From a virus, in the IMG/VR virus record IMGVR_UViG_3300009103_000003, positions 96,001 through 160,000 of that record: a DNA stretch of 64,000 nucleotides; one strand, written 5' to 3'. Every line of letters starts with the position of its first letter. Position 1 is the first letter of the stretch. The position numbers and the translations under genes were made by a program. The notes under the pieces were generated by a model. That model ran no database searches. It was not told the origin of the DNA and was given only the letters and a program-made list of their open reading frames with translations. Below are positions 19,715-32,241 of this stretch, one piece after another.

Positions 19715-20552
19715 AGAGTCTCCTCCAGTAACTGTTAAAATTTTGGCCGACTTGCTCAGCGGCTTCGTAGTACCCTGGACCTAAGTTATTTCCCTCAGGA
19801 TCAACAAAGTAAGCCCCAGATTGACGCAGTGTGTCACTAGCAATCAGAGCCCTCAGAAGCTCAAAGTTCCGGTCAAAACCTTTCTGGTTAAATATGAATC
19901 CATATGCGTTGCTTCCTGGCGGTGCGCTCAACGATCTAAACACAGAAAATTCTATCTTTGCGTAAGCCAATTCCCCATATTCTGTTCTTATCTGGTCCCT
20001 CCGATTACGAACCCTGGTGTCACATATATTATTAAGTACACCCTCAAAGGATGAGACAGGTGTCGGCACCAGAGCACCAATTGGAACCCGAAGCTGGCTT
20101 GTAACAAGCACGAGCGCTTCCTTCGCAATAGCTTCTTCACGTAGGGTGGAGAGGCCATGAAAAACAAGCTTTTTCTGTGCATAAGGCTCTCTTGAGCCTA
20201 CAGCGTAATTCAATTCAGTAAATGTTTCTAGGTTGGAAATGCTGTCGATAACGACAACTTTAGCGCCGTGCACCAAGGCAGAGAAAGCAGCTTCAATAGC
20301 TGCCTCCCCAAACCTTGGTGACACGACTACGCAGTCCGTAGGACCAGCGTCACTAAAATATACTTTGTCGGGCAAGCCTTCTGTGTAGACAAGAGCAGTC
20401 GGGTGACCATCAATTGAAGCTTCACGCATCACACTAAGGCATAGGGAGGTTTTGCCGCAAGCATCACCACCCACAATCTCAGACACACCAATCGGGAACC
20501 CCCCAAACAGTGCCTCATCTAACTGGCATACCCCAGTGCGAAACTTCTTCAA
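19686..20552 (-). CDS. Divergent RecA/UvsX-family ATPase
   Basis: TG...LDEALFGGFP, Walker A GGDACGKT, Walker B VVVIDSIS, TSQLR. Confidence 0.7.
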   Translation of the reverse strand: MKKFRTGVCQLDEALFGGFPIGVSEIVGGDACGKTSLCLSVMREASIDGHPTALVYTEGLPDKVYFSDAGPTDCVVVSPRFGEAAIEAAFSALVHGAKVVVIDSISNLETFTELNYAVGSREPYAQKKLVFHGLSTLREEAIAKEALVLVTSQLRVPIGALVPTPVSSFEGVLNNICDTRVRNRRDQIRTEYGELAYAKIEFSVFRSLSAPPGSNAYGFIFNQKGFDRNFELLRALIASDTLRQSGAYFVDPEGNNLGPGYYEAAEQVGQNFNSYWRRLYGSQSDSEP

Positions 20553-22126
20553 CTCATGATTCTCCTTCTGGTCTTTTTACTCGATGGTTTACGAATCTCC
20601 TTTTGGGAGTTGTCGTTTGCCATTATAGCTCGACCAGCCGCCCATTTACGCAGGCCCTCAATTTGAGTCTCCATAGTGGCGGAAAGTGGAACTGTGTTAA
20701 CAGCGGCTGATAGGTAGTCGTCTGCTGTAGGATCTCTTCCTTCAGGAAAAGCTTTATACATACCATCAATAATAATTTGCTCTAGCTCAGCGCCAGAGAA
20801 ACCATCTGTGGCATCGACTAGTGCGGCCATTCCAGTGTCATGTCCGGGGTAATCCCCAGTTAAAACGGAAGGGTCTCTACCGTATCTACCAAGATGGATA
20901 TTGATAATAGACTCCCGGTCTTCTTCCCCCGGAAGATCTACGAAAAACAGCTCATCAAAGCGACCTTTACGCAACATCTCTGGTGGAAGTGCCGATACAT
21001 CATTTGCTGTTGCAACGACGAACACCGGAGATGTCTTTTCTTGCATCCAACTCAGGAAGGAACCGAAGACCCTTGCGGTCGTCCCACTATCGGAGACTCC
21101 TGTAGAACTTCCTAGGCTTTTCTCAAGCTCGTCAATCCACAAGACACAAGGCGCTAAGGCCTCAGCAGTTTTAAGGGCTTTTCGCATGTTCGCTTCTGAT
21201 TGACCAACTAGCGAGCCAAATAGCGAGCCTACATCCATCCTTAAGACGGGCATACCCCAATCATGTCCGATGCACTTTGAGACAAGGCTTTTACCTGTTC
21301 CTGGGATTCCTACAATAAGAACTCCGCGTGGGTTAGGTAGTCCGTACTCTCGTGCTTCTTCACTGAACGAGCCGCCCCGTTGGTGCAGCCACTTCTTCAG
21401 ATTCTCAAGCCCCCCAACAGAGTTCATGTCTCTGTCAACATCGTAGAACTGGAGCACCCCACTCTTTCGGATGATGTGCTTTTTCTCCTCAATGATTATT
21501 TGGGGGTCGAGCATGCTCGCATGGGCTAGAGACTTCGCAAAGACGTTTTCGGCTTCAGCCAATGTTAGTCCGAGTGCTGCGTTTGACCCAATGTCCACCA
21601 TGTTGTTTCTAGCGTCCTCTTGCAAGGTTGCCGTGGCTGCACAGTCGGCCATCAAAAGATGTGCTGTCCCGTTTAGCTCTTGAATACTTGGTAGATCAAA
21701 ATCAACTACTGCAATAAGCTTCTCTAACCGAGGCGGGATCTCAAGCTCAGAGTCAACAATAACGATGTTGATTCCTGGGCCTAGATTAGAAAGGGTATCT
21801 CTCAGCTTACGCTGAACCAAATACTCTGGTCCGGTGTTAAGAAAATTAGCAAAGTCTCGTAATAGGAATACGCCGGATTCTCTATACCCCTGGATATAAT
21901 CCAGAACATCTAGAGGTCCGTCGAGTTCTGAAAGAACATTTTCACCGCAACGGCAACCTTCAGTGATTGACCAAACATGTAATTTGGAATTCAACCCCTG
22001 CTTGTTGTTCCGTCTCTCGATTATTCCTGATAAGCACTGCTCTACCCGACCTTCTTCGTAGGAAACTACAAAGATGGCCGGGTAGGCAGCACGAATCAGA
22101 AGGTCGAGTTCTTCGACCGACCTCAT
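20549..22126 (-). CDS. Ycf46-type AAA+ ATPase (degenerate N-terminal AAA plus active AAA)
   Basis: VGGLENLKKWL, GIPGTGKS, VLWIDELEK, ATAN, LPPEMLRKGRFDE. Confidence 0.9.
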   Translation of the reverse strand: MRSVEELDLLIRAAYPAIFVVSYEEGRVEQCLSGIIERRNNKQGLNSKLHVWSITEGCRCGENVLSELDGPLDVLDYIQGYRESGVFLLRDFANFLNTGPEYLVQRKLRDTLSNLGPGINIVIVDSELEIPPRLEKLIAVVDFDLPSIQELNGTAHLLMADCAATATLQEDARNNMVDIGSNAALGLTLAEAENVFAKSLAHASMLDPQIIIEEKKHIIRKSGVLQFYDVDRDMNSVGGLENLKKWLHQRGGSFSEEAREYGLPNPRGVLIVGIPGTGKSLVSKCIGHDWGMPVLRMDVGSLFGSLVGQSEANMRKALKTAEALAPCVLWIDELEKSLGSSTGVSDSGTTARVFGSFLSWMQEKTSPVFVVATANDVSALPPEMLRKGRFDELFFVDLPGEEDRESIINIHLGRYGRDPSVLTGDYPGHDTGMAALVDATDGFSGAELEQIIIDGMYKAFPEGRDPTADDYLSAAVNTVPLSATMETQIEGLRKWAAGRAIMANDNSQKEIRKPSSKKTRRRIMS

Positions 22127-24601: not shown

Positions 24602-25423
24602 TTACTGACCTTCAACCACATTGTTGCTTGGGGTCTTGGAATGCTTCGGTGCAGCGGCCTTCACGGCATACTGACGAACCTTCTTAAACCTGAACCCATG
24701 CTCCCTCATCAAAGAGGTCTGTGCAGTTGACAGAGCAGATGTAATGGCTACCTGACTACTCTCGCTGTCCCAGGCACCCTCAACGCACTTGGCGTAGGTG
24801 GGCTGAACAAACTGAGCGATGTATTCAGGAACATCAACAACCAATTTCAGGCCCCGCTTTTCCGCGAGGTCGGAAAGATAGAATGGAACACCCATCAGGC
24901 CCAACGCCTTTGTGGTGGTCTCATCCATCACCCCCTCCTCCACAGAGAGGCCGGTGCCGCTTGCAACCAAGTCCTTCAGGGCTTCGAAGTTGTGAGGCTT
25001 CTCTTTGGCGTCTCGGTACTTGATAGCACACGAAAGAAACGCACAGATGAACTCCTCACGGGCTCGGGCCTTTTCAGCCTTGGTAGGCTTCTTGGAACCA
25101 CGCTTCCACCCACCCCTGGTGATGAAGTTCAACGCGGCAGAGCCGTCGAAGTAACCATCGCAGGACAGAGTGAACCCGAACTTGCATTGCCAAGTCCGCT
25201 TCCCATCGCTGTACTCTGGAACACCTGAGTAGTAAACCGCCTTGGTATCGGGGTCCACCACACGGAGCATCCGCGTGACAACGTTATTATAAGTAATAGT
25301 AATAACATCTGGTGCCCGCTCCGGGTCAATCAGATTCAGCATAGCTTGCCCCATACCGGGAAGCTTCCATTTGGACTTGTTTGGGCCAGTCTTCTGACCT
25401 TGGTTGTTATCGTTGGTAGCCAT
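24602..25423 (-). CDS. Hypothetical protein (273 aa), last gene of the ubiquitin-like operon
   Basis: RBS GAGGAG; intact ORF 31 nt after E1. Confidence 0.7.
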   Translation of the reverse strand: MATNDNNQGQKTGPNKSKWKLPGMGQAMLNLIDPERAPDVITITYNNVVTRMLRVVDPDTKAVYYSGVPEYSDGKRTWQCKFGFTLSCDGYFDGSAALNFITRGGWKRGSKKPTKAEKARAREEFICAFLSCAIKYRDAKEKPHNFEALKDLVASGTGLSVEEGVMDETTTKALGLMGVPFYLSDLAEKRGLKLVVDVPEYIAQFVQPTYAKCVEGAWDSESSQVAITSALSTAQTSLMREHGFRFKKVRQYAVKAAAPKHSKTPSNNVVEGQ

Positions 25424-25454
25424 AACACATCTCCTCTTATAAAATTTTTATAAG

Positions 25455-26120
25455 CTAGCTCGCAGAATTGCGATTTAAGTGGAAGTTGAGGAAGTCTACA
25501 TCCACTGAATAATTTATCTCATCACCGATAATACTTTTGGCAACGAGAGCACAAATAATACTTGAAATGCCATATGCGCAGAAAATTGTGCTTTTTTCTG
25601 TGCACGGTAGCTGCACCGCTTCTTCGTCAGGAAACAGACTTTGGTCGTAGTAGGAAACGCTGTTTGCATTTGATTTGTCTACATAGAAGACAGATCCTTC
25701 ACGCGCTCCCATACGACCGTCCAGGAAATACTTTGCTCCGCTGCTTACAAGAAAGCTTGACCAGATATCTGAGCGAGCAGACATATTGTCCACTGCTGAG
25801 ATTACATAGTCTTCTTGGAAGGTTTCACCCCCCTCGAACTTCCTGTCTTCAGCGATGATTTCCGCACCGGTTCCTTCCGATAGCCGTTGCTGCAAGGCTT
25901 CACATTTCTTATACCCAATTTCGGTCACGAAATAGCCTTGATTGGCTACGTTGTGAGACTCGACATCGTCAAAGTCATAGATGCGTATCTTTCGAATACC
26001 CATCTTGCACAAGGCTTCAGCAACATGGGACCCAATAGCCCCTGCGCCAACAATAGCTACAGAGCGGTTCTGTACGATTTCGTCTGGGATAATTCCGGAC
26101 TGGCGTGTGGTATCAATCAT
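25455..26120 (-). CDS. E1-like (ThiF/MoeB) Ubl-activating enzyme
   Basis: VAIVGAGAIGS, YDFDDVESHNVANQ, SAVDNMSAR, LDGRMG, candidate catalytic Cys in LPCTEKS. Confidence 0.9.
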   Translation of the reverse strand: MIDTTRQSGIIPDEIVQNRSVAIVGAGAIGSHVAEALCKMGIRKIRIYDFDDVESHNVANQGYFVTEIGYKKCEALQQRLSEGTGAEIIAEDRKFEGGETFQEDYVISAVDNMSARSDIWSSFLVSSGAKYFLDGRMGAREGSVFYVDKSNANSVSYYDQSLFPDEEAVQLPCTEKSTIFCAYGISSIICALVAKSIIGDEINYSVDVDFLNFHLNRNSAS

Positions 26121-27136
26121 ACTGCCACCCCAACCGGCTCATCTTCATCCTCGTCGTCTTCTCCAAACTCTGCTGCTAGGATTTTCTGGACTTCATCGTC
26201 CTGTTCTTCGTCGTCCTTTTTGCTTCCGACGTCGTAGTACAGTCCAGACAACTCATCCAAAATTTCCTCTGTGCTCATTTCTTTTGCGTACCACTTAGAG
26301 TGATATTCAATGACCTCTGTAAGATCTACGATGTTTTCTTCGTAGAGTTCTGCCAGAAGCTCTAGTTCATCGGGCAACCGCAGAGACTCTTTTACGTACT
26401 CAACATTCGCGATCAAGTCATCTTCGTCCGAAGCGCTTTCGCTTTTGTCGTCTCCAGCTTCTTTGCTTTGATGACCGCCGTCCCAGCCGATGTAGTCGTC
26501 GTCCCAGTGGCCGAAGAAGCTCTGGTGGCCGTTTACTTTTCCCGTGTATGAACCGGTAGTGTACTTTCTTGTGTGTTTGACAACATTTAGTTGCGTAGGC
26601 GCGGGTCGAGAGACGTGGTCTTCAACCATCTCCTTTGCCCAGCCGTCCTCCAAGATGCTTACCTGATCAACAGACCATCCACACTTTTCAAAGGAAAACC
26701 TGAACGGGTTGTACATATCTACCCGGACATTGAGGTCTCTCTTTTTGTTGGAGATTACGCTAATACAGACCTTATCAAAATTGAATTCTTCAATTTGTTT
26801 CTCGTCTGTTCCGGAATGACCGGTATCCATATTTACATGGGAGTGCCACCATACACAGATTTGGTCTGAACTTATCCCCTGGTCCCTAAGCTCCAAAGAC
26901 ACATCTGCATAAGAGTCCATATCGAAGACAGTACTGCCCCCAGTGCACTCTTGGTCTGGAACATAGAATTCTAGAACATAGAAAGGCTCTTTAATGCCCC
27001 ACTCATTTCGTTGAGCATCTGTGGCAATAATACCAATTGCTGATATCTCAATTGGGCACTCATCAGTCAATGCTGTCATTTGTTGATATGCTTTTTGTGT
27101 AAATCGGACGGTTGGCTTTGTTAGAACTTTAGTCAT
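26117..27136 (-). CDS. JAB/MPN+ metallo-isopeptidase with long acidic tail
   Basis: PIEISAIG...YVPDQEC...WWHSHVNMDTGHSGTD (E...HxH..S..D); start after GGAGG, overlapping the E2 stop. Confidence 0.85.
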   Translation of the reverse strand: MTKVLTKPTVRFTQKAYQQMTALTDECPIEISAIGIIATDAQRNEWGIKEPFYVLEFYVPDQECTGGSTVFDMDSYADVSLELRDQGISSDQICVWWHSHVNMDTGHSGTDEKQIEEFNFDKVCISVISNKKRDLNVRVDMYNPFRFSFEKCGWSVDQVSILEDGWAKEMVEDHVSRPAPTQLNVVKHTRKYTTGSYTGKVNGHQSFFGHWDDDYIGWDGGHQSKEAGDDKSESASDEDDLIANVEYVKESLRLPDELELLAELYEENIVDLTEVIEYHSKWYAKEMSTEEILDELSGLYYDVGSKKDDEEQDDEVQKILAAEFGEDDEDEDEPVGVAV

Positions 27137-28238
27137 TAGTTCCTCCTGGATTGGTTTGTTGTTGAGCGAAACGGGCTGCATACTCGTTTCTTGAGATGCA
27201 GGGTGTTCCGTTTATTCCTCTATATGATGCTGGCGGGTTTATCGGATGAACGTGATGAACCATGCAGCAGCTATGGCAGTGACCACAGCCGCTAAGGTCT
27301 TCTTGTTCTTGGATAGTTCCGCATTCGTTGCATCTAGGACACTCACAATCCGCCATGATGTGGTTCCCTGACTCACATACAGCGTTGTCCCATCTGTTTG
27401 GGCACCACGCAGATAAGTGTACGTACGGGTTCTCTCTATTATAATGTTGTAGAAAGTCCGTGAGCGTTTCGATTACTTTAGCGATATCCTTAACACCCAT
27501 ATCTTGTATTAGGGTGGGTTGGATATTGCCTAGGCATGCTGCACCATGCTCGTTTAGATGTGGGTGCGGATAGTTTCTCCTGTTACCCTCATCCGGGTTA
27601 ACGCTTTTGCAGTATACAGTGACTCGGTTTCCTCGAACGGGGTCACCGTTGTAAGTTACAGAGCAATCAAATTTACCAAAGTTGTGTGGGAGAACAGATC
27701 CGAAACCATCTTTTATGAAGATATCGTTAGTTCTCCAAGTTAGTTTTTGCTCATCTGCACTGATTGTGGAGAACTTGATTGGGACACGCGTATCGATGAG
27801 ACCCTCAATGAAACGAATCATCAACGCTCTTTTTTCGAAACCATCCTCTGTGTAGATTTCTCCGTTCAACTCCAAGCGCCTTTTTATCTGCGCAATAGCT
27901 CGCTCACACCTTTCCGCTCGGTCTCTTGCCTGAGAAGACTTTGAACTTCGGTCCATAAGCTTTTGTCTGGCAGCACGCGTTCTCGCTCTGGCACGGTCGT
28001 ACTCTGCCTCCTTGGCAGCAAGGCGTTGCTGGGCTCGGGTATAGATAGCCGACCTAGCAGAGACCTTATTGTTGTGCATTCGTTCTGCGGCACGCTCTCT
28101 TTCTAGCGCGGCAGACAATTTTATAAGCTCTTTTGAAGCAAGACTTTCTGAGTCGGTGATGATGGTCTGAAGTTGTTTGGCAATCAGAGCGTCGTCACCA
28201 TTAAAAGTTAGTTCGTAGTTTTTTGCTGTTGATGCCAT
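27129..28238 (-). CDS. Prokaryotic E2-like conjugating enzyme with N-terminal coiled coil and C-terminal Cys/His-rich region
   Basis: NYPHPHLNEHGAACLGN (HPH...G..CLG), then helix ...FLQHYNRENPY; start after GGAG RBS. Confidence 0.75.
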   Translation of the reverse strand: MASTAKNYELTFNGDDALIAKQLQTIITDSESLASKELIKLSAALERERAAERMHNNKVSARSAIYTRAQQRLAAKEAEYDRARARTRAARQKLMDRSSKSSQARDRAERCERAIAQIKRRLELNGEIYTEDGFEKRALMIRFIEGLIDTRVPIKFSTISADEQKLTWRTNDIFIKDGFGSVLPHNFGKFDCSVTYNGDPVRGNRVTVYCKSVNPDEGNRRNYPHPHLNEHGAACLGNIQPTLIQDMGVKDIAKVIETLTDFLQHYNRENPYVHLSAWCPNRWDNAVCESGNHIMADCECPRCNECGTIQEQEDLSGCGHCHSCCMVHHVHPINPPASYRGINGTPCISRNEYAARFAQQQTNPGGTND

Positions 28239-28248
28239 AGTTTCTCCA

Positions 28249-28286
28249 CAAAAAAATAGCGGATGCCCCCCGAAGGGGACACCCGC
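28249..28286 (-). terminator. Intrinsic terminator between Ubl and E2
   Basis: GCGGGTGTCCCC-TTCG-GGGGGCATCCGC followed by TATTTTTTT. Confidence 0.8.
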
Positions 28287-28351
28287 CACTTTTATTACTC
28301 GTTATATTATTGGTCAGGTATAACGAGTTTGGGTCAGGAGACTAGTAACGA

Positions 28352-28861
28352 CTACTGTCGTCCACCAGCAACCTTGTTACCAACCCAAATCTCATGCGGC
28401 CCTTCACCGAGAACGGTGCTGTTCGGGTCCGTAATGTCTGCGGTTTGGCCAGGGCCAACTCGTCGCTTGAAGGTGAGGCTGCGAATATCCCAGCCGCCCT
28501 CTTGCGTATTTAGCGTACTCACGATGTCTCCAAGAGTGGAGTCAGTGCGAACTTCAAGGCAACGGTCAGACTTACCATTTCGGATAAGCGTAACAACACA
28601 CATGTCAGCGGCGCTGACTGTGCTTGTGGACGGGGCGGCGAAGGAGATGTTTCCTCCTCCGTTAACACCACCAGAACCATTAGTTCCGTTGCTGTTCGTT
28701 GCTGATTCAAGTCGGCTTTGCGCCTCGTTTACAGCAGACTGGAGCGCCTGCAAGCGGTCGAGGTTGCTTCGACTGTAGTCTGTTCCCATGTTGGCAACGA
28801 AAGAATCTCGTGCTGAGGTTGCTGACCCCAACGTTTCGTTCAAGTAATCAATGTTTTGCAT
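28352..28861 (-). CDS. Ubiquitin-like (beta-grasp) protein with N-terminal helical domain, ending ...KVAGG-RQ
   Basis: C-terminal ~85 aa with VVTLIR...LEV..DSTLGDIV...LGEG..IWVGNKVAGGRQ; directly upstream of E2-JAB-E1. Confidence 0.7.
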   Translation of the reverse strand: MQNIDYLNETLGSATSARDSFVANMGTDYSRSNLDRLQALQSAVNEAQSRLESATNSNGTNGSGGVNGGGNISFAAPSTSTVSAADMCVVTLIRNGKSDRCLEVRTDSTLGDIVSTLNTQEGGWDIRSLTFKRRVGPGQTADITDPNSTVLGEGPHEIWVGNKVAGGRQ

Positions 28862-28876
28862 AACTAGTTAGTCTCC

Positions 28877-29236
28877 TTAGACTAGATCCCAACGGAAACC
28901 GTTGAAAATCTTTTGTAGCTTACCCGTTATTTCTTCCATGCTTTCTGCATTGAGGGTAACTACTGATGAATCATCAAAATCTACACGAATTGCTCGTGGT
29001 ACATTAGACATGTCTGGCGTTTGGCTTTTGCCGATATCGCCTGCTGTAGCGTAAACGCTATACTCTATAAATGTCACATTATCGTTCTCGAAGGATGGTC
29101 TCCGTCCCACATAGCAGGTCAAATCCCAGCCCTTGTGTGACGCTGTTTTAACCTTCTTTCGGTTCTCCAAAACTTTAGATATTAGCGCATAATAATCTTC
29201 ACGCCCAGTTTCCGGAGTGTCAGTTCTCTCAACCAT
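28877..29236 (-). CDS. Hypothetical protein
   Basis: 119-aa ORF with RBS, directly upstream of Ubl. Confidence 0.6.
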   Translation of the reverse strand: MVERTDTPETGREDYYALISKVLENRKKVKTASHKGWDLTCYVGRRPSFENDNVTFIEYSVYATAGDIGKSQTPDMSNVPRAIRVDFDDSSVVTLNAESMEEITGKLQKIFNGFRWDLV

Positions 29237-29257
29237 TGATCCTCTTTTTCTGCTCGG

Positions 29258-29878
29258 CTATCGCTTCTGAGAGGGGTGGTCCTTAAATAAAACCGAATAT
29301 TTTCTTTTTAGGAATCGAATATGTTTTTTGACGCTATTTGAATACCTCGCCGGTCGAGTACATTTCCTACACTGGGAATCGGTACCACACTTGTCGAGGC
29401 ATTTATTTTGGACATACTTCCAGCCTTGCCCGCCGTTGTAGCAGGCAAACACTTTGGTACCACGACACTGCCTATAATTTTTCCGAAATAATGAGATTAA
29501 GAGAAGAGACGCTTTCATATTATTCTCTACGACAAGCATGTCCTTCTCACAGTCATTAAATCCGAAAACCTTTTTTAGTCGTTTTCTGTGGATGCGGCAG
29601 TTAACCTGCATCAGCCCATAATCACCGGTGTGGCTAATAGCCCGATCAGTGAGACCGGACTCAACCATCCCAATACCGATAATTTCGTATGCGTCATACT
29701 CGCCAGGAATAAGCGGGAGAACCCTCTTGATCTGAGAGATATGTCTTTCGCTCAGAGACTTTGGGGGATTCCTTCCGGAACCACTGTACTTGGCCTTTTT
29801 TACTTGGGCCATAGAAATACTTAAACAAGCAGCGCTCATAAAACCGAACGCAAAAAGTGTTAGTAAAGTTCTCCTCAT
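29258..29878 (-). CDS. Lytic transglycosylase (SLT-like) with N-terminal signal/anchor
   Basis: IGMVESG catalytic Glu, GDYGLMQVN, ACYNGG. Confidence 0.85.
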   Translation of the reverse strand: MRRTLLTLFAFGFMSAACLSISMAQVKKAKYSGSGRNPPKSLSERHISQIKRVLPLIPGEYDAYEIIGIGMVESGLTDRAISHTGDYGLMQVNCRIHRKRLKKVFGFNDCEKDMLVVENNMKASLLLISLFRKNYRQCRGTKVFACYNGGQGWKYVQNKCLDKCGTDSQCRKCTRPARYSNSVKKHIRFLKRKYSVLFKDHPSQKR

Positions 29879-30380: not shown

Positions 30381-30809
30381 TTAGGGCCTCGTAAACCTGA
30401 GTCCGCCGATAAGTATGGACTTTTTTATAGACATAGAGGCTTTCTTAGACATAGCAGCCAACGCCTTTCGGTCCCACTCAGGAGTCACCTCGTCTTTTAC
30501 AGGTGAGAGCGGCTCCCTATAGTCAGCTACCATTTCCTCGCCCGGAGCGATATCTTTAGTGGCATAGGCAATAAGTTTTTTGCCGGATTTCCGTAAACCC
30601 ACATTGGCCACAGGTGAGTGGTTGAAGTAATCCCCCAGAAGGGTTTGGTGATAGTCCTTATAAACATCACCCGTGGGCTTACCGCTCTTTCTTATTAAGG
30701 CAACGCCGAGGACTTCCCCAGCCTTGTGGCCGCGCACACTGAAGCTCCCGGTCCCATCGATGGGGGACCGCTTGTGCTTTATCCGACCGTTTTCAACATG
30801 AGATAACAT
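30381..30809 (-). CDS. SET-domain lysine methyltransferase-like protein
   Basis: IDGTGSF, YFNHSPVAN, YATKDIAPGEEMVADY match SET motifs. Confidence 0.8.
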   Translation of the reverse strand: MLSHVENGRIKHKRSPIDGTGSFSVRGHKAGEVLGVALIRKSGKPTGDVYKDYHQTLLGDYFNHSPVANVGLRKSGKKLIAYATKDIAPGEEMVADYREPLSPVKDEVTPEWDRKALAAMSKKASMSIKKSILIGGLRFTRP

Positions 30810-30858
30810 ACTGTCCACCAGTATAACTGATAATACAAAAAATGGTCCAGCTAAAGAG

Positions 30859-31430: not shown

Positions 31431-31700
31431 CTACTCAAGCTGGCGCAAGCCGTTATGGCATTCCGCATATGCGTTGGCCAGAGAGATGAGCTTAACCCCC
31501 CTAGCTTCTTTGTAGTAGCCCGTGTCCAGAGTACACAAATGCTTGTGTACCTGTTCCGCTGCGTAGTACAGCTTTTCTAGGTTGGGAATATCATAAGCTC
31601 TCGGGAATAGTCCAGCTTTATCAAGCACTTGCGCGAACTCTGAAAATTTTTTTAATTCTTCTTTAGATTCTTGTGTATCTTTATTTACTTCATTACTCAT
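31431..31700 (-). CDS. Hypothetical protein
   Basis: Coupled ORF. Confidence 0.5.
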   Translation of the reverse strand: MSNEVNKDTQESKEELKKFSEFAQVLDKAGLFPRAYDIPNLEKLYYAAEQVHKHLCTLDTGYYKEARGVKLISLANAYAECHNGLRQLE

Positions 31701-32241
31701 TATCGTCCTCCATTTGCTCTAGGTAATCTACTCGCTCTGCACAGAAGTCAAATTCATCCGGCTTACCCTCTTTGCAGTCGTGCATTCCCCCATCTTTCCA
31801 AGTCATCGCCCCAGCGAACCAGCACCCGTATTCAACAAATTCGAGGCAGAACTCTAGGTCTGGGTTGTCCTCCGAAACTTTGTGGAGCCACGCCACTGGC
31901 GGACTCCACGCGCTCATGAAGCTCACGGTCCACGTTTTATCTTCTGGGGTTAGGTCGCAATAACTGAGGTCTTCGTTCGGGATATCCCACTTGGTTCCCC
32001 AGTTATGGACCTTCCAATAGTACCAAGCCTTATCCAGGGTAGGCTCTTTATCAGTCCCAATACTTCTTCGAATTTCGTGCAGAAAGCAGTCTTCGCTTTC
32101 GTTTAATTGCTGAACCTTTGATTCGGGCATTGGGTAGTGCGCTGACAACAGCCCATCACCCTCTTTTATCTTAGAAACAAAAAGGGCCAGCTTGTCGGCT
32201 GGCCCAGATATCTCGATATTATTTTCACACCAGTTTGGCAT
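31693..32241 (-). CDS. DUF1281/Api92-like ferredoxin-fold phage protein
   Basis: MPNWCENNIEISG, WYYW...NWGTKWD, F.SAWSPP. Confidence 0.7.
   Translation of the reverse strand: MPNWCENNIEISGPADKLALFVSKIKEGDGLLSAHYPMPESKVQQLNESEDCFLHEIRRSIGTDKEPTLDKAWYYWKVHNWGTKWDIPNEDLSYCDLTPEDKTWTVSFMSAWSPPVAWLHKVSEDNPDLEFCLEFVEYGCWFAGAMTWKDGGMHDCKEGKPDEFDFCAERVDYLEQMEDDNE

What the first reader, a model, noticed from the sequence alone, without database searches (positions are those of the whole stretch)
25455..28861. Complete phage-encoded ubiquitin-like conjugation pathway: Ubl - E2 - JAB - E1
Seen: four adjacent minus-strand genes, with E2/JAB/E1 coupled by overlapping stop/start codons. They are a beta-grasp-like protein ending VAGG-RQ; an E2-like protein with HPH...G..CLG; a JAB protease with E...HSH..S..D; and a ThiF/E1 with GxGxxG, DxDxVxxxNxxxQ and a Cys in LPCT. 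No thiamine, molybdopterin or cysteine-synthesis genes are nearby. Known: Ubl/E1/E2/JAB operons occur in bacteria, and the Bil antiphage systems conjugate Ubl to phage proteins. Inference: here the virus carries the full writer, tag and eraser set. It could tag host defence or envelope proteins, modify its own virion proteins, exclude competing phages, or decoy and strip host Bil-type conjugates.
Basis: partly seen in the sequence, partly recalled or inferred. Interest (0 to 1): 0.92.

Follow-up and report, generated by a model that had tools for sequence, protein, structure and literature searches.

The report
Phage-encoded ubiquitin-like protein-tagging cassette
A complete 181-kb marine phage carries its own four-gene ubiquitin-style tagging kit (tag, activating enzyme, carrier enzyme, trimming protease); the proteins belong to undescribed families that recur in many other phages and some bacteria, and what the kit tags is unknown.

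Summary
Four co-directional minus-strand genes encode four parts.

- **Ubl:** a ubiquitin-like protein with a beta-grasp fold. All 24 family members end in GG plus 0-3 extra residues.
- **E2:** it has a UBC fold with an invariant HPH-x7-Cys site.
- **JAB protease:** it has an invariant E...HxH-x7-S-x2-D motif.
- **E1:** a minimal 221-residue enzyme with an intact adenylation site and an invariant Cys in a CTxK motif.

The genome is a complete myovirus-type phage with terminal repeats. It has no rhodanese, PP-loop sulfurtransferase or cysteine desulfurase.

New here:
- A strong intrinsic terminator sits between the Ubl and E2 genes. It is conserved in six sister phages with different stem sequences, which implies excess tag over enzymes.
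- The same cassette occurs in about 30 unrelated viral contigs, including complete 42-47 kb phages, mostly beside replication genes.
- It also occurs in Myxococcota, Planctomycetota and other bacterial assemblies, so it is not virus-only.

It has the gene order of the Bil systems, but it fails Bil's E1 and E2 defining features. I found no paper on it. Earlier notes of this scan reached the same reading on sister phages. The target and biological role remain inferred.

The parts
28352..28861 (-). Ubl precursor (169 aa). N-terminal helical hairpin (residues 2-57), Asn/Gly-rich disordered linker (59-83), one beta-grasp domain (87-162), tail KVAGG followed by RQ.
   Evidence: AF2 model. Foldseek PDB hits are all SUMO, ubiquitin or UBL domains, TM by target 0.6-0.68. 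In the 24-member family G166 and G167 are invariant and 0-3 variable residues follow them.
28250..28293 (-). Intrinsic terminator between Ubl and E2: GC-rich hairpin with a UUCG loop, then a run of 7 U. It ends about 10 nt before the E2 ribosome-binding site.
   Evidence: Folding energy -32.1 kcal/mol, z = -5.9 against shuffles. A hairpin plus T-run sits at the same place in L002, L003 and L006-L009, each with a different stem sequence. The consensus terminator scan missed it.
27129..28238 (-). E2 (369 aa). One long charged helix (16-128, net charge +10), UBC core (about 134-284) with H225-P226-H227-x7-C235, and a Cys/His-rich C-terminal module (285-350).
26117..27136 (-). JAB/JAMM metalloprotease (339 aa from the corrected start). 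N-terminal MPN+ domain followed by an acidic C-terminal region with a conserved KWYAKE helix.
   Evidence: E45, H113, H115, S123 and D126 (ORF numbering) are invariant in 16 aligned relatives. Pfam Prok-JAB scores only E 0.073 here and 1.9e-5 for a distant family member. The only PDB profile hits are Rpn11/PSMD14, E 0.017. Start and 8-nt overlap with E2.
25455..26120 (-). Minimal E1 (221 aa). A single ThiF-type adenylation domain with the candidate catalytic Cys173 in LPCTEK. It has no CxxC zinc pairs, no inactive adenylation domain, no helical Cys-domain insertion and no ubiquitin-fold domain.
   Evidence: Pfam ThiF E 1.3e-22. R6, GxGxxG, D49, N57, Q61, K72, D111, R116, D134, R136, C173 and T174 are invariant. 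C173 is present in 33 of 33 viral relatives. Best PDB profile hits are the Uba1 active adenylation domain (2e-16) and UBA5 (3e-16). ATGA overlap with JAB.
28877..29878 (-). Upstream genes probably co-transcribed with the Ubl gene: a secreted SLT lytic transglycosylase (29258-29878) and orf119 (28877-29236). The gaps are 21 and 15 nt, each with a ribosome-binding site.
   Evidence: Pfam SLT 2.1e-10. Junction sequence. Both genes are conserved only in the sister phages.
24602..25423 (-). orf273, 31 nt downstream of E1 with its own ribosome-binding site. Function unknown. It is a candidate accessory factor or substrate in this phage lineage only.
   Evidence: Junction. No Pfam hit. Conserved in L003 and L006-L009 but not in the distant cassettes.

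Best explanation
This is a working ubiquitin-like conjugation cascade that the phage expresses during infection.

Proposed steps:
1. The JAB protease trims the two residues after the diglycine of the Ubl precursor.
2. The small E1, probably a homodimer like MoeB and UBA5, adenylates the exposed Gly167 and takes the Ubl onto Cys173 as a thioester.
3. The Ubl passes to Cys235 of the E2, beside the HPH loop.
4. The E2 transfers it to lysines of target proteins. Its long basic helix and its Cys/His module would act as a built-in adaptor or E3-like part.
5. The JAB protease can also reverse the tagging.

A leaky terminator after the Ubl gene keeps the tag in excess over the three translationally coupled enzymes.

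Shown here: the folds, the catalytic motifs and their invariance, the gene coupling, the terminator and its conservation, and the phage origin and wide distribution.

Inferred: all the chemistry, the adaptor role of the E2 extensions, and the target. I think the most likely targets are host or phage proteins handled in the early, replication phase. The reason is that the cassette sits in replication modules in unrelated phages.
For: - All four folds or motifs are confirmed.
- The catalytic residues do not vary across deep divergence. E2 P226, H227 and C235 are invariant in 66 sequences at 18% mean identity. E1 C173 is present in 33 of 33 relatives, together with the full set of adenylation residues. 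The JAMM motif is invariant.
- The Ubl diglycine is invariant and the extension after it varies, as in precursor Ubls.
- E2/JAB and JAB/E1 have overlapping stop and start codons.
- The terminator keeps its position and structure in six phages while the stem sequence changes.
- The cassette Ubl(..VKGG)-E2-JAB-E1 recurs in about 30 viral contigs, among them complete 42-47 kb genomes.
- Its recurrent neighbours there are a D5-type primase-helicase (12 loci) and an SNF2 helicase (6 loci). In this window the neighbours are RecA-like, ParB and AAA genes.
- The phage genome has no sulfur-transfer partners.
- In Bil systems, bacterial cassettes of the same gene order have been shown to conjugate (10.1101/2023.09.26.559546, 10.1101/2023.09.04.556158). 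A JAMM-trimmed pro-ubiquitin with an HPN-type E2 has been shown to work in Caldiarchaeum (PMC5654768).
Against: - There is no biochemical or expression evidence. No RNA run was listed.
- The JAB profile support is weak. The case rests on the motif.
- A 221-residue E1 lacks every accessory domain that canonical E1s use to hand the Ubl to an E2, so the transfer geometry is unknown.
- Distant Ubls of the family hit Pfam ThiS (5.3e-7). That is also what a sulfur carrier would look like.
- The target is unknown. The replication-module context is only an association.
Confidence: 0.7

Rival explanations
1. The cassette has the same chemistry, but it serves as a weapon against other phages. Like Bil, it would tag a structural protein of co-infecting or superinfecting phages, or it would be a defence cassette merely carried by phages and prophages. 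On this reading it does not modify host or own proteins as part of the phage's own cycle.
For: - Bil systems, which share the gene order, tag the central tail fibre of infecting phages (10.1101/2023.09.04.556158).
- The family also occurs on bacterial assemblies. These include Mb-scale Myxococcota contigs, one chromosome with three copies, and tandem duplicates. That spread resembles a mobile defence module.
- E2 N-terminal regions vary greatly in length (317-812 aa), as expected for diversifying target recognition.
Against: - The cassette is a conserved core block in a family of 150-180 kb lytic-type phages.
- It takes up about 10% of complete 42-47 kb phage genomes.
- It sits in replication modules rather than at variable genome ends or in moron-like positions.
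- No PADLOC defence model hits the Ubl, E2 or JAB.
- The phage would have to spare its own virion.
Confidence: 0.17
2. The cassette is a sulfur-carrier system. E1 would adenylate a ThiS/MoaD-like protein that becomes a thiocarboxylate and donates sulfur to tRNA, DNA or a cofactor. The E2-like protein would be a relay or a scaffold, and the JAB protease would only mature the carrier.
For: - The E1 has the size of ThiF and MoeB.
- A distant Ubl of the family scores above the Pfam ThiS cut-off (30.5 bits).
- The cassette lies among nucleic-acid metabolism genes, and the phage carries tRNA genes.
- Databases annotate related phage E1s as 'thiamine biosynthesis protein'.
Against: - The complete phage genome has no rhodanese, PP-loop ATPase or cysteine desulfurase.
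- None is in the conserved neighbourhood of the distant cassettes either.
- An E2 with an invariant HPH-Cys site always accompanies the cassette, and sulfur-carrier systems lack one.
- The E1 lacks the CxxC zinc pairs and the rhodanese fusion that are typical of MoeB- and ThiF-type sulfur systems (Iyer 2006, PMC1779556).
Confidence: 0.07
3. The pathway is partly inactive or works in an unusual way. The E2-like protein might not form a thioester and might serve only as an adaptor, with E1 conjugating directly as in the archaeal SAMP/UbaA system. Alternatively the cascade might use non-cysteine intermediates, as the Bub systems do.
For: - E2-less conjugation and oxyester cascades both exist in prokaryotes (PMC11601596, PMC4443979).
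- The E1 is minimal and has no obvious E2-docking domain.
Against: Both the E1 Cys173 and the E2 Cys235 are invariant across the whole family, and the HPH loop is kept with them. That conservation is not expected if the cysteines were dispensable.
Confidence: 0.06

Closest known systems
Bil systems (BilABCD, Type I and II; bacterial ISG15-like anti-phage systems)
   Same: - Four separate genes in the same order: Ubl, E2, JAB, E1.
- No separate E3.
- The Ubl is sometimes made with a short extension after the Gly that the JAB removes.
- Some Type II BilA proteins have an N-terminal coiled coil or an Asn/Gly-rich region before a single beta-grasp domain (PMC11601603). This Ubl has both.
   Different: - BilD is a roughly 500-residue E1 with an inactive adenylation domain, an active one and a helical Cys-domain insertion (Cys417). 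This E1 is a single 221-residue domain.
- Type II BilB carries a Cys followed by E-H-H ('CEHH') with no upstream HPN. This E2 has HPH eight residues before the Cys, plus a fused zinc-type module and a 113-residue helix.
- No PADLOC model hits this Ubl, E2 or JAB.
- The cassette is carried by phages as a conserved block.
Caldiarchaeum/Asgard eukaryote-like Ub-E1-E2-srfp(RING)-Rpn11 operon (PMC5654768)
   Same: - The Ubl is made as a precursor with residues after the GG, and a JAMM/Rpn11-like protease sits next to it.
- The E2 has an HPN-type loop before the catalytic Cys.
- This JAB profile hits only Rpn11 in the PDB, and this E1 profile scores best against Uba1 and UBA5.
   Different: - There is no separate small RING protein. 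At most, a Cys/His module is fused to the E2, and its fold was not tested.
- The E1 is much smaller.
- The Ubl and E2 are too diverged for Pfam to recognise.
- The host is a bacteriophage.
Type II CBASS Cap2/Cap3
   Same: E1, E2 and JAB chemistry appears in a prokaryote-phage conflict setting. The only PADLOC hits of this E1 are Cap2 'E1-E2' models (1.7e-15, covering the first 70 residues only).
   Different: - Cap2 is an E2-E1 fusion.
- Its substrate is the C-terminus of a CD-NTase, not a beta-grasp Ubl.
- No CD-NTase or effector is present here.
Lambda/T1 tail-assembly TAPI (Ubl) with TAPK (JAB + NlpC/P60), the only phage Ubl-JAB pairing in Iyer et al. 2006 (PMC1779556)
   Same: A phage-encoded beta-grasp protein with a conserved C-terminal Gly, next to a JAB peptidase.
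   Different: That system has no E1 or E2, lies in the tail module, and is thought to involve proteolytic processing only.

Membership tests
Bil (BilABCD) | Four genes in the order Ubl - E2 - JAB - E1 | tested here: met
   The order is as given in PMC11601603 and 10.1101/2023.09.26.559546.
Bil (BilABCD) | E1 (BilD) with an inactive plus an active adenylation domain and a mobile helical Cys domain (about 500 aa) | tested here: not met
   The E1 is 221 aa with one ThiF domain spanning residues 17-215. The family length is 217-236 aa in most viral relatives. BilD is not among the PDB hits at E <= 1e-4.
Bil (BilABCD) | E2 (BilB) active site: Cys with a downstream His (CEHH in Type II), lacking the classical upstream His | tested here: not met
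   The invariant motif is H225-P226-H227-x7-C235, followed by LGN. No E/H/H pattern follows the Cys.
Bil (BilABCD) | Match to defence-system profile models of Bil/ISG15-like proteins | tested here: inconclusive
   PADLOC gives no hit at E <= 1 for the Ubl, E2 or JAB, and the 25 E1 hits shown (of 34) are all Cap2 'E1-E2' models. I could not verify which Bil models that release holds.
Bil (BilABCD) | Protects a bacterium against phage by tagging a phage structural protein | not testable with these tools
   This needs infection assays.
UBC/E2 superfamily | UBC fold (N-terminal helix, four-strand meander, crossover helices) | tested here: met
UBC/E2 superfamily | HPN-type loop and catalytic Cys | tested here: met
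   HPH-x7-C is invariant or nearly so in 66 relatives. That this spacing equals the HPN-x7-Cys85 of UbcH5 is my own knowledge and was not aligned here.
UBC/E2 superfamily | Forms a Ubl~Cys thioester | not testable with these tools
   This needs biochemistry.
E1 / ThiF-MoeB adenylating enzymes | Rossmann GxGxxG, Arg finger, Mg-binding Asp, ThiF profile | tested here: met
   Pfam ThiF 80.6 bits against a cut-off of 28.1. R6, G25, G27, G30, D49, D111, R116 and D134 are invariant.
E1 / ThiF-MoeB adenylating enzymes | Catalytic Cys for thioester formation (E1 proper) | tested here: inconclusive
   C173-T174 is invariant in 33 of 33 relatives.
JAMM/MPN+ metalloproteases | E ... HxH-x7-S-x2-D zinc site | tested here: met
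   E45, H113, H115, S123 and D126 are invariant.
JAMM/MPN+ metalloproteases | Profile match above the curated threshold | tested here: inconclusive
   Prok-JAB scores 13.4 bits here and 24.9 bits in relative L022, against a cut-off of 25. The profile scores E 0.017 against Rpn11.
ThiS/MoaD sulfur-carrier systems | Partner sulfur donor or transferase (rhodanese, cysteine desulfurase, PP-loop ATPase) in the operon or genome | tested here: not met
   No match in the complete phage genome, while the controls were found in 13-14 of 14 genomes.
Archaeal/eukaryote-like E1-E2-RING operon | RING-type E3 (separate srfp) | tested here: inconclusive
   The sequence searches run identified no RING or other E3-like protein among the cassette proteins or the neighbouring genes scanned. 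The E2 residues 285-350 carry at least 10 conserved Cys/His. Pfam finds nothing there, and the fold of that module could not be searched on its own.

The most novel reading that the evidence does not exclude
Phages of many lineages run their own ubiquitin-like tagging pathway as a host-takeover or counter-defence tool. They would mark host proteins, or replication-associated proteins, early in infection. In this 150-180 kb marine lineage the pathway would be paired with a phage-encoded Cdc48/VAT-like AAA unfoldase 3 kb downstream, forming a minimal viral tag-and-extract system analogous to ubiquitin-Cdc48. The eukaryote-like HPx-Cys E2 and Rpn11-like JAB of this family would then be a large, virus-borne reservoir of ubiquitin machinery.
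Probability: 0.2. Interest if true: 0.9.

Novelty: new variant of a known kind. Interest (0 to 1): 0.78.

Why it matters
Prokaryotic ubiquitin-like conjugation has so far been studied as a cellular weapon against phages (Bil, type II CBASS, Bub). Here the virus owns a complete pathway.

It is not a one-off. The cassette is a conserved core block of a family of large marine phages, and it takes up about a tenth of some complete 42-47 kb phage genomes. That argues for a strong benefit to the phage.

The parts are unusually simple and eukaryote-like in their active sites: a 221-residue E1, an E2 with an HPH-Cys site, and an Rpn11-like JAB. This gives a small, tractable system in which to study how a minimal E1 hands a Ubl to an E2. 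It also adds a viral branch to the history of ubiquitin machinery.

The conserved terminator that sets the tag-to-enzyme ratio is a concrete regulatory feature that can be tested.

Tried and rejected
- blastn of the cassette, and tblastn of the E2, against 50,697 phage records: no match.
- E2 profile against PDB sequences: nothing meaningful.
- VIA wide search with the whole E2 model: swamped by the 113-residue helix, so it says nothing about the UBC core or the Cys/His module.
- Pfam on E2 residues 280-369 alone: no hit.
- JAB-pattern scan of genome contigs: none. The later E2-motif DNA scan did find bacterial copies, so 'virus-only' is rejected.
- The genome search 'relatives' is not available for a virus record.
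- A Cdc48-like AAA ATPase as an obligate partner: rejected. It is absent from six complete 42-47 kb cassette-bearing phages.
- A phage-encoded ClpP or proteasome: none.
- A second Ubl or E2 copy in the genome: none.
- My E2 and Ubl profiles did not detect partners of the E1-JAB pairs in crAss001, Fpv1 or PhiXhv-16. Those cultured phages are more distant relatives, not members of this cassette family as tested.
- Six literature searches and several full-text look-ups found no paper on a phage-encoded complete Ubl cascade.


Full report
**Where the window lies.** The window is bases 96001-160000 of a single 181,199-bp contig. The record is classed as a virus with direct terminal repeats and 100% estimated completeness. 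It encodes a tail-sheath protein, ribonucleotide reductase, an SbcCD-like exonuclease and four tRNAs. It is a complete large myovirus-type phage. DNA runs that hold it are marine metagenomes.

**The observation.** Four minus-strand ORFs occupy 25455-28861. Two starts need correction.
- The E2 begins at the ATG at 28238 (369 aa), as in the gene call and in all homologues. The upstream GTG lies inside a terminator hairpin.
- The JAB begins at the ATG at 27136, six bases after a GGAGGA site, and this matches the N-termini of all homologues.

E2/JAB overlap by 8 nt (ATGACTAA) and JAB/E1 by 4 nt (ATGA). Ubl and E2 are not coupled.

**Ubl.** Sequence profiles find nothing. A family of 24 proteins shows an invariant KRRVGPG core and invariant G166-G167, followed by 0-3 variable residues. 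This is the hallmark of a Ubl made as a precursor. The AF2 model has three parts: a helical hairpin (2-57), a disordered Asn/Gly-rich linker, and a beta-beta-alpha-beta-beta-beta domain at pLDDT about 90. Its Foldseek PDB hits are SUMO, ubiquitin, ISG15 and UBL/UBX domains, with TM by target 0.6-0.68. An N-terminal coiled coil and N/G-rich regions have been described for some Type II Bil and Bub Ubls (PMC11601603).

**E2.** Word-indexed search gave 8 close relatives. An exhaustive profile search gave 656 cluster representatives at E <= 1e-3 and 45 at <= 1e-30. In 66 aligned relatives with 18% mean column identity, the only invariant residues are P226, H227 and C235, and H225, G237, Y266 and N267 are nearly invariant.

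The model (pLDDT 91.9) has three parts:
- One 113-residue charged helix with net charge +10.
- A core at residues 134-284.
- A Cys/His-rich tail.

The HPH-x7-Cys spacing equals the HPN-x7-Cys of UbcH5; this is my own knowledge and was not aligned here. In the wider family the conserved core sits at the C-terminus, behind N-terminal regions of very different length. That pattern fits a variable recognition part in front of a constant catalytic part.

**JAB.** E45, H113, H115, S123 and D126 are invariant. Profile support is weak but specific. Pfam Prok-JAB gives 0.073 here and 1.9e-5 in a distant member, and the family profile hits only Rpn11/PSMD14 in the PDB.

**E1.** Pfam ThiF scores 1.3e-22. 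Across 33 viral relatives the Arg finger, GxGxxG, DxD, N57, Q61, K72, D111, R116, D134 and R136 are kept, and C173 is present in 33 of 33 within a C-T-x-K motif. There are no CxxC zinc pairs. The best PDB profile hits are the active adenylation domain of Uba1 and UBA5. At 221 residues it lacks every accessory domain of BilD and of eukaryotic E1s.

**Regulatory anatomy (new).** Between the Ubl stop and the E2 ribosome-binding site lies a hairpin of -32.1 kcal/mol (z = -5.9) with a UUCG loop and a run of seven U. Six sister phages have a GC-rich hairpin plus T-run at the same place, each with a different stem sequence. There is no room for a promoter after it, so E2-JAB-E1 must be read through. 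The design gives more tag than enzyme, or lets an antiterminator time the enzymes. Upstream, a secreted SLT transglycosylase and orf119 are joined to the Ubl gene by 21- and 15-nt gaps.

**Distribution.**
- *Viral contigs.* A JAB-pattern scan of IMG/VR gave 35 loci. My profiles find E2-JAB-E1 (sometimes E2-E1-JAB) in about 30 of them. A 65-90-residue ORF ending in VKGG or VKGA plus 0-4 residues lies just upstream of the E2 in most, and one of these scores above the Pfam ThiS cut-off.
- *Shared genes.* Only the four genes are shared between the sister phages and the distant contigs. The recurrent neighbours in the distant contigs are a D5-type primase-helicase (12 loci) and an SNF2 helicase (6 loci).
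- *Small complete phages.* Several carriers are complete 42-47 kb genomes.
- *Bacterial assemblies.* A DNA scan for the E2 active-site motif in one genome per prokaryote species gave 100 stretches. 66 encode family E2s, and 30 of those show E2-JAB-E1 within the excerpt. They include Mb-scale Myxococcota contigs (three copies on one chromosome), Planctomycetota, Patescibacteria and Gammaproteobacteria assemblies, with upstream ORFs ending PKV[ED]GG.

So the family is abundant in viruses but not confined to them. I did not determine whether the bacterial copies sit in prophages.

**Comparison with known systems.** The gene order is that of BilABCD (PMC11601603). However, BilD's two-domain-plus-Cys-insertion architecture and BilB's Cys-then-His site (10.1101/2023.09.26.559546) are both absent here, and PADLOC models do not hit the Ubl, E2 or JAB. 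None of the operon classes 6a-6e of Iyer et al. 2006 fits, and their only phage case is the tail-assembly Ubl-JAB pair (PMC1779556). The HPx-Cys E2, the Rpn11-like JAB and the trimmed pro-Ubl recall the Caldiarchaeum operon (PMC5654768), but no separate RING protein was found.

**Rivals.**
- *Sulfur carrier.* This role is disfavoured. The complete genome lacks rhodanese, PP-loop ATPase and cysteine desulfurase, and an E2 with an invariant cysteine always accompanies the cassette.
- *Degradation pathway.* The genome has no ClpP or proteasome. The Cdc48/VAT-like AAA ATPase 3 kb downstream (E 2e-46) is conserved only in the sister phages and is absent from six complete small carriers. It is at most a lineage-specific partner.
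- *Weapon against rival phages.* Whether the cassette serves the phage's own cycle or acts against rival phages cannot be decided here.

**Literature and earlier notes.** Searches of the held library found no description of a phage-encoded complete Ubl cascade. Earlier notes of this scan reached the same reading on sister marine phages. I treat them as leads, and I re-derived every component call here.

**Verdict.** This is a new, mainly viral variant of the prokaryotic Ubl-E2-JAB-E1 theme, with an unknown target.

Noticed in passing
window 20549-22126 (-): A 525-aa AAA ATPase whose AAA domain is very similar to the D2 ring of Cdc48/p97 and to archaeal VAT (E 2e-46). It lies 3 kb downstream of the cassette on the same strand, after ParB. 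It is conserved in the sister phages but absent from six complete 42-47 kb phages that carry the cassette.
   Followed up: partly
JAB relatives P0185, P0187, P0188, P0190, P0194, P0198, P0202; L003:7058-8167; window 26117-26140: About a third of the close JAB orthologues end in a Ubl-like tail (VVGGSE, VVGGSK, VVGGAK, ALGGSK) after an acidic linker. This phage's copy ends PVGVAV. The tail could be a pseudo-substrate that occupies the protease site, or a second substrate for E1.
   Followed up: partly
L046, L070, L116 (all on OZ223209.1, a 5.98-Mb Myxococcota chromosome); L094; L090: One Myxococcota chromosome carries three copies of the Ubl-E2-JAB part with no E1 detected next to two of them. 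One Gammaproteobacteria contig has two complete E2-JAB-E1 cassettes in tandem. Another contig has two E2 genes in a row.
   Followed up: no
L141 (Bacteroides phage crAss001, gp76-gp78); L142 (Flavobacterium phage Fpv1, gp53-gp54); L143 (Xanthomonas phage PhiXhv-16): Cultured phages carry a related small E1, annotated 'thiamine biosynthesis protein'. In crAss001 and Fpv1 it sits directly after a protein with an exact HSH-x7-S-x2-D JAMM motif. In crAss001 and PhiXhv-16 replication genes (primase/UDG, topoisomerase) lie nearby. In PhiXhv-16 a 140-aa ORF ending ..KASGG lies upstream. My E2 and Ubl profiles did not detect partners there.
   Followed up: partly
window 25424-25454: An AT-rich perfect palindrome (CTTATAAAAATTTTATAAG) lies between the E1 stop and the ribosome-binding site of orf273.
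   Followed up: no
window 30381-30818 (-) and 31693-32241 (-): A SET-domain protein (Pfam 1.6e-6) and a protein with the ferredoxin-like DUF1281_C/Api92-like domain (2.5e-7) lie just upstream of the operon.
   Followed up: no
L097 (8-kb contig binned as Promethearchaeota) and L102 (Thermoplasmatota MAG): Full cassettes very close to the viral type (E1 profile E 4e-89 in L097) sit on short contigs binned into archaeal MAGs. These are probably viral contigs, and if so they suggest archaeal-virus carriers or mis-binning.
   Followed up: no
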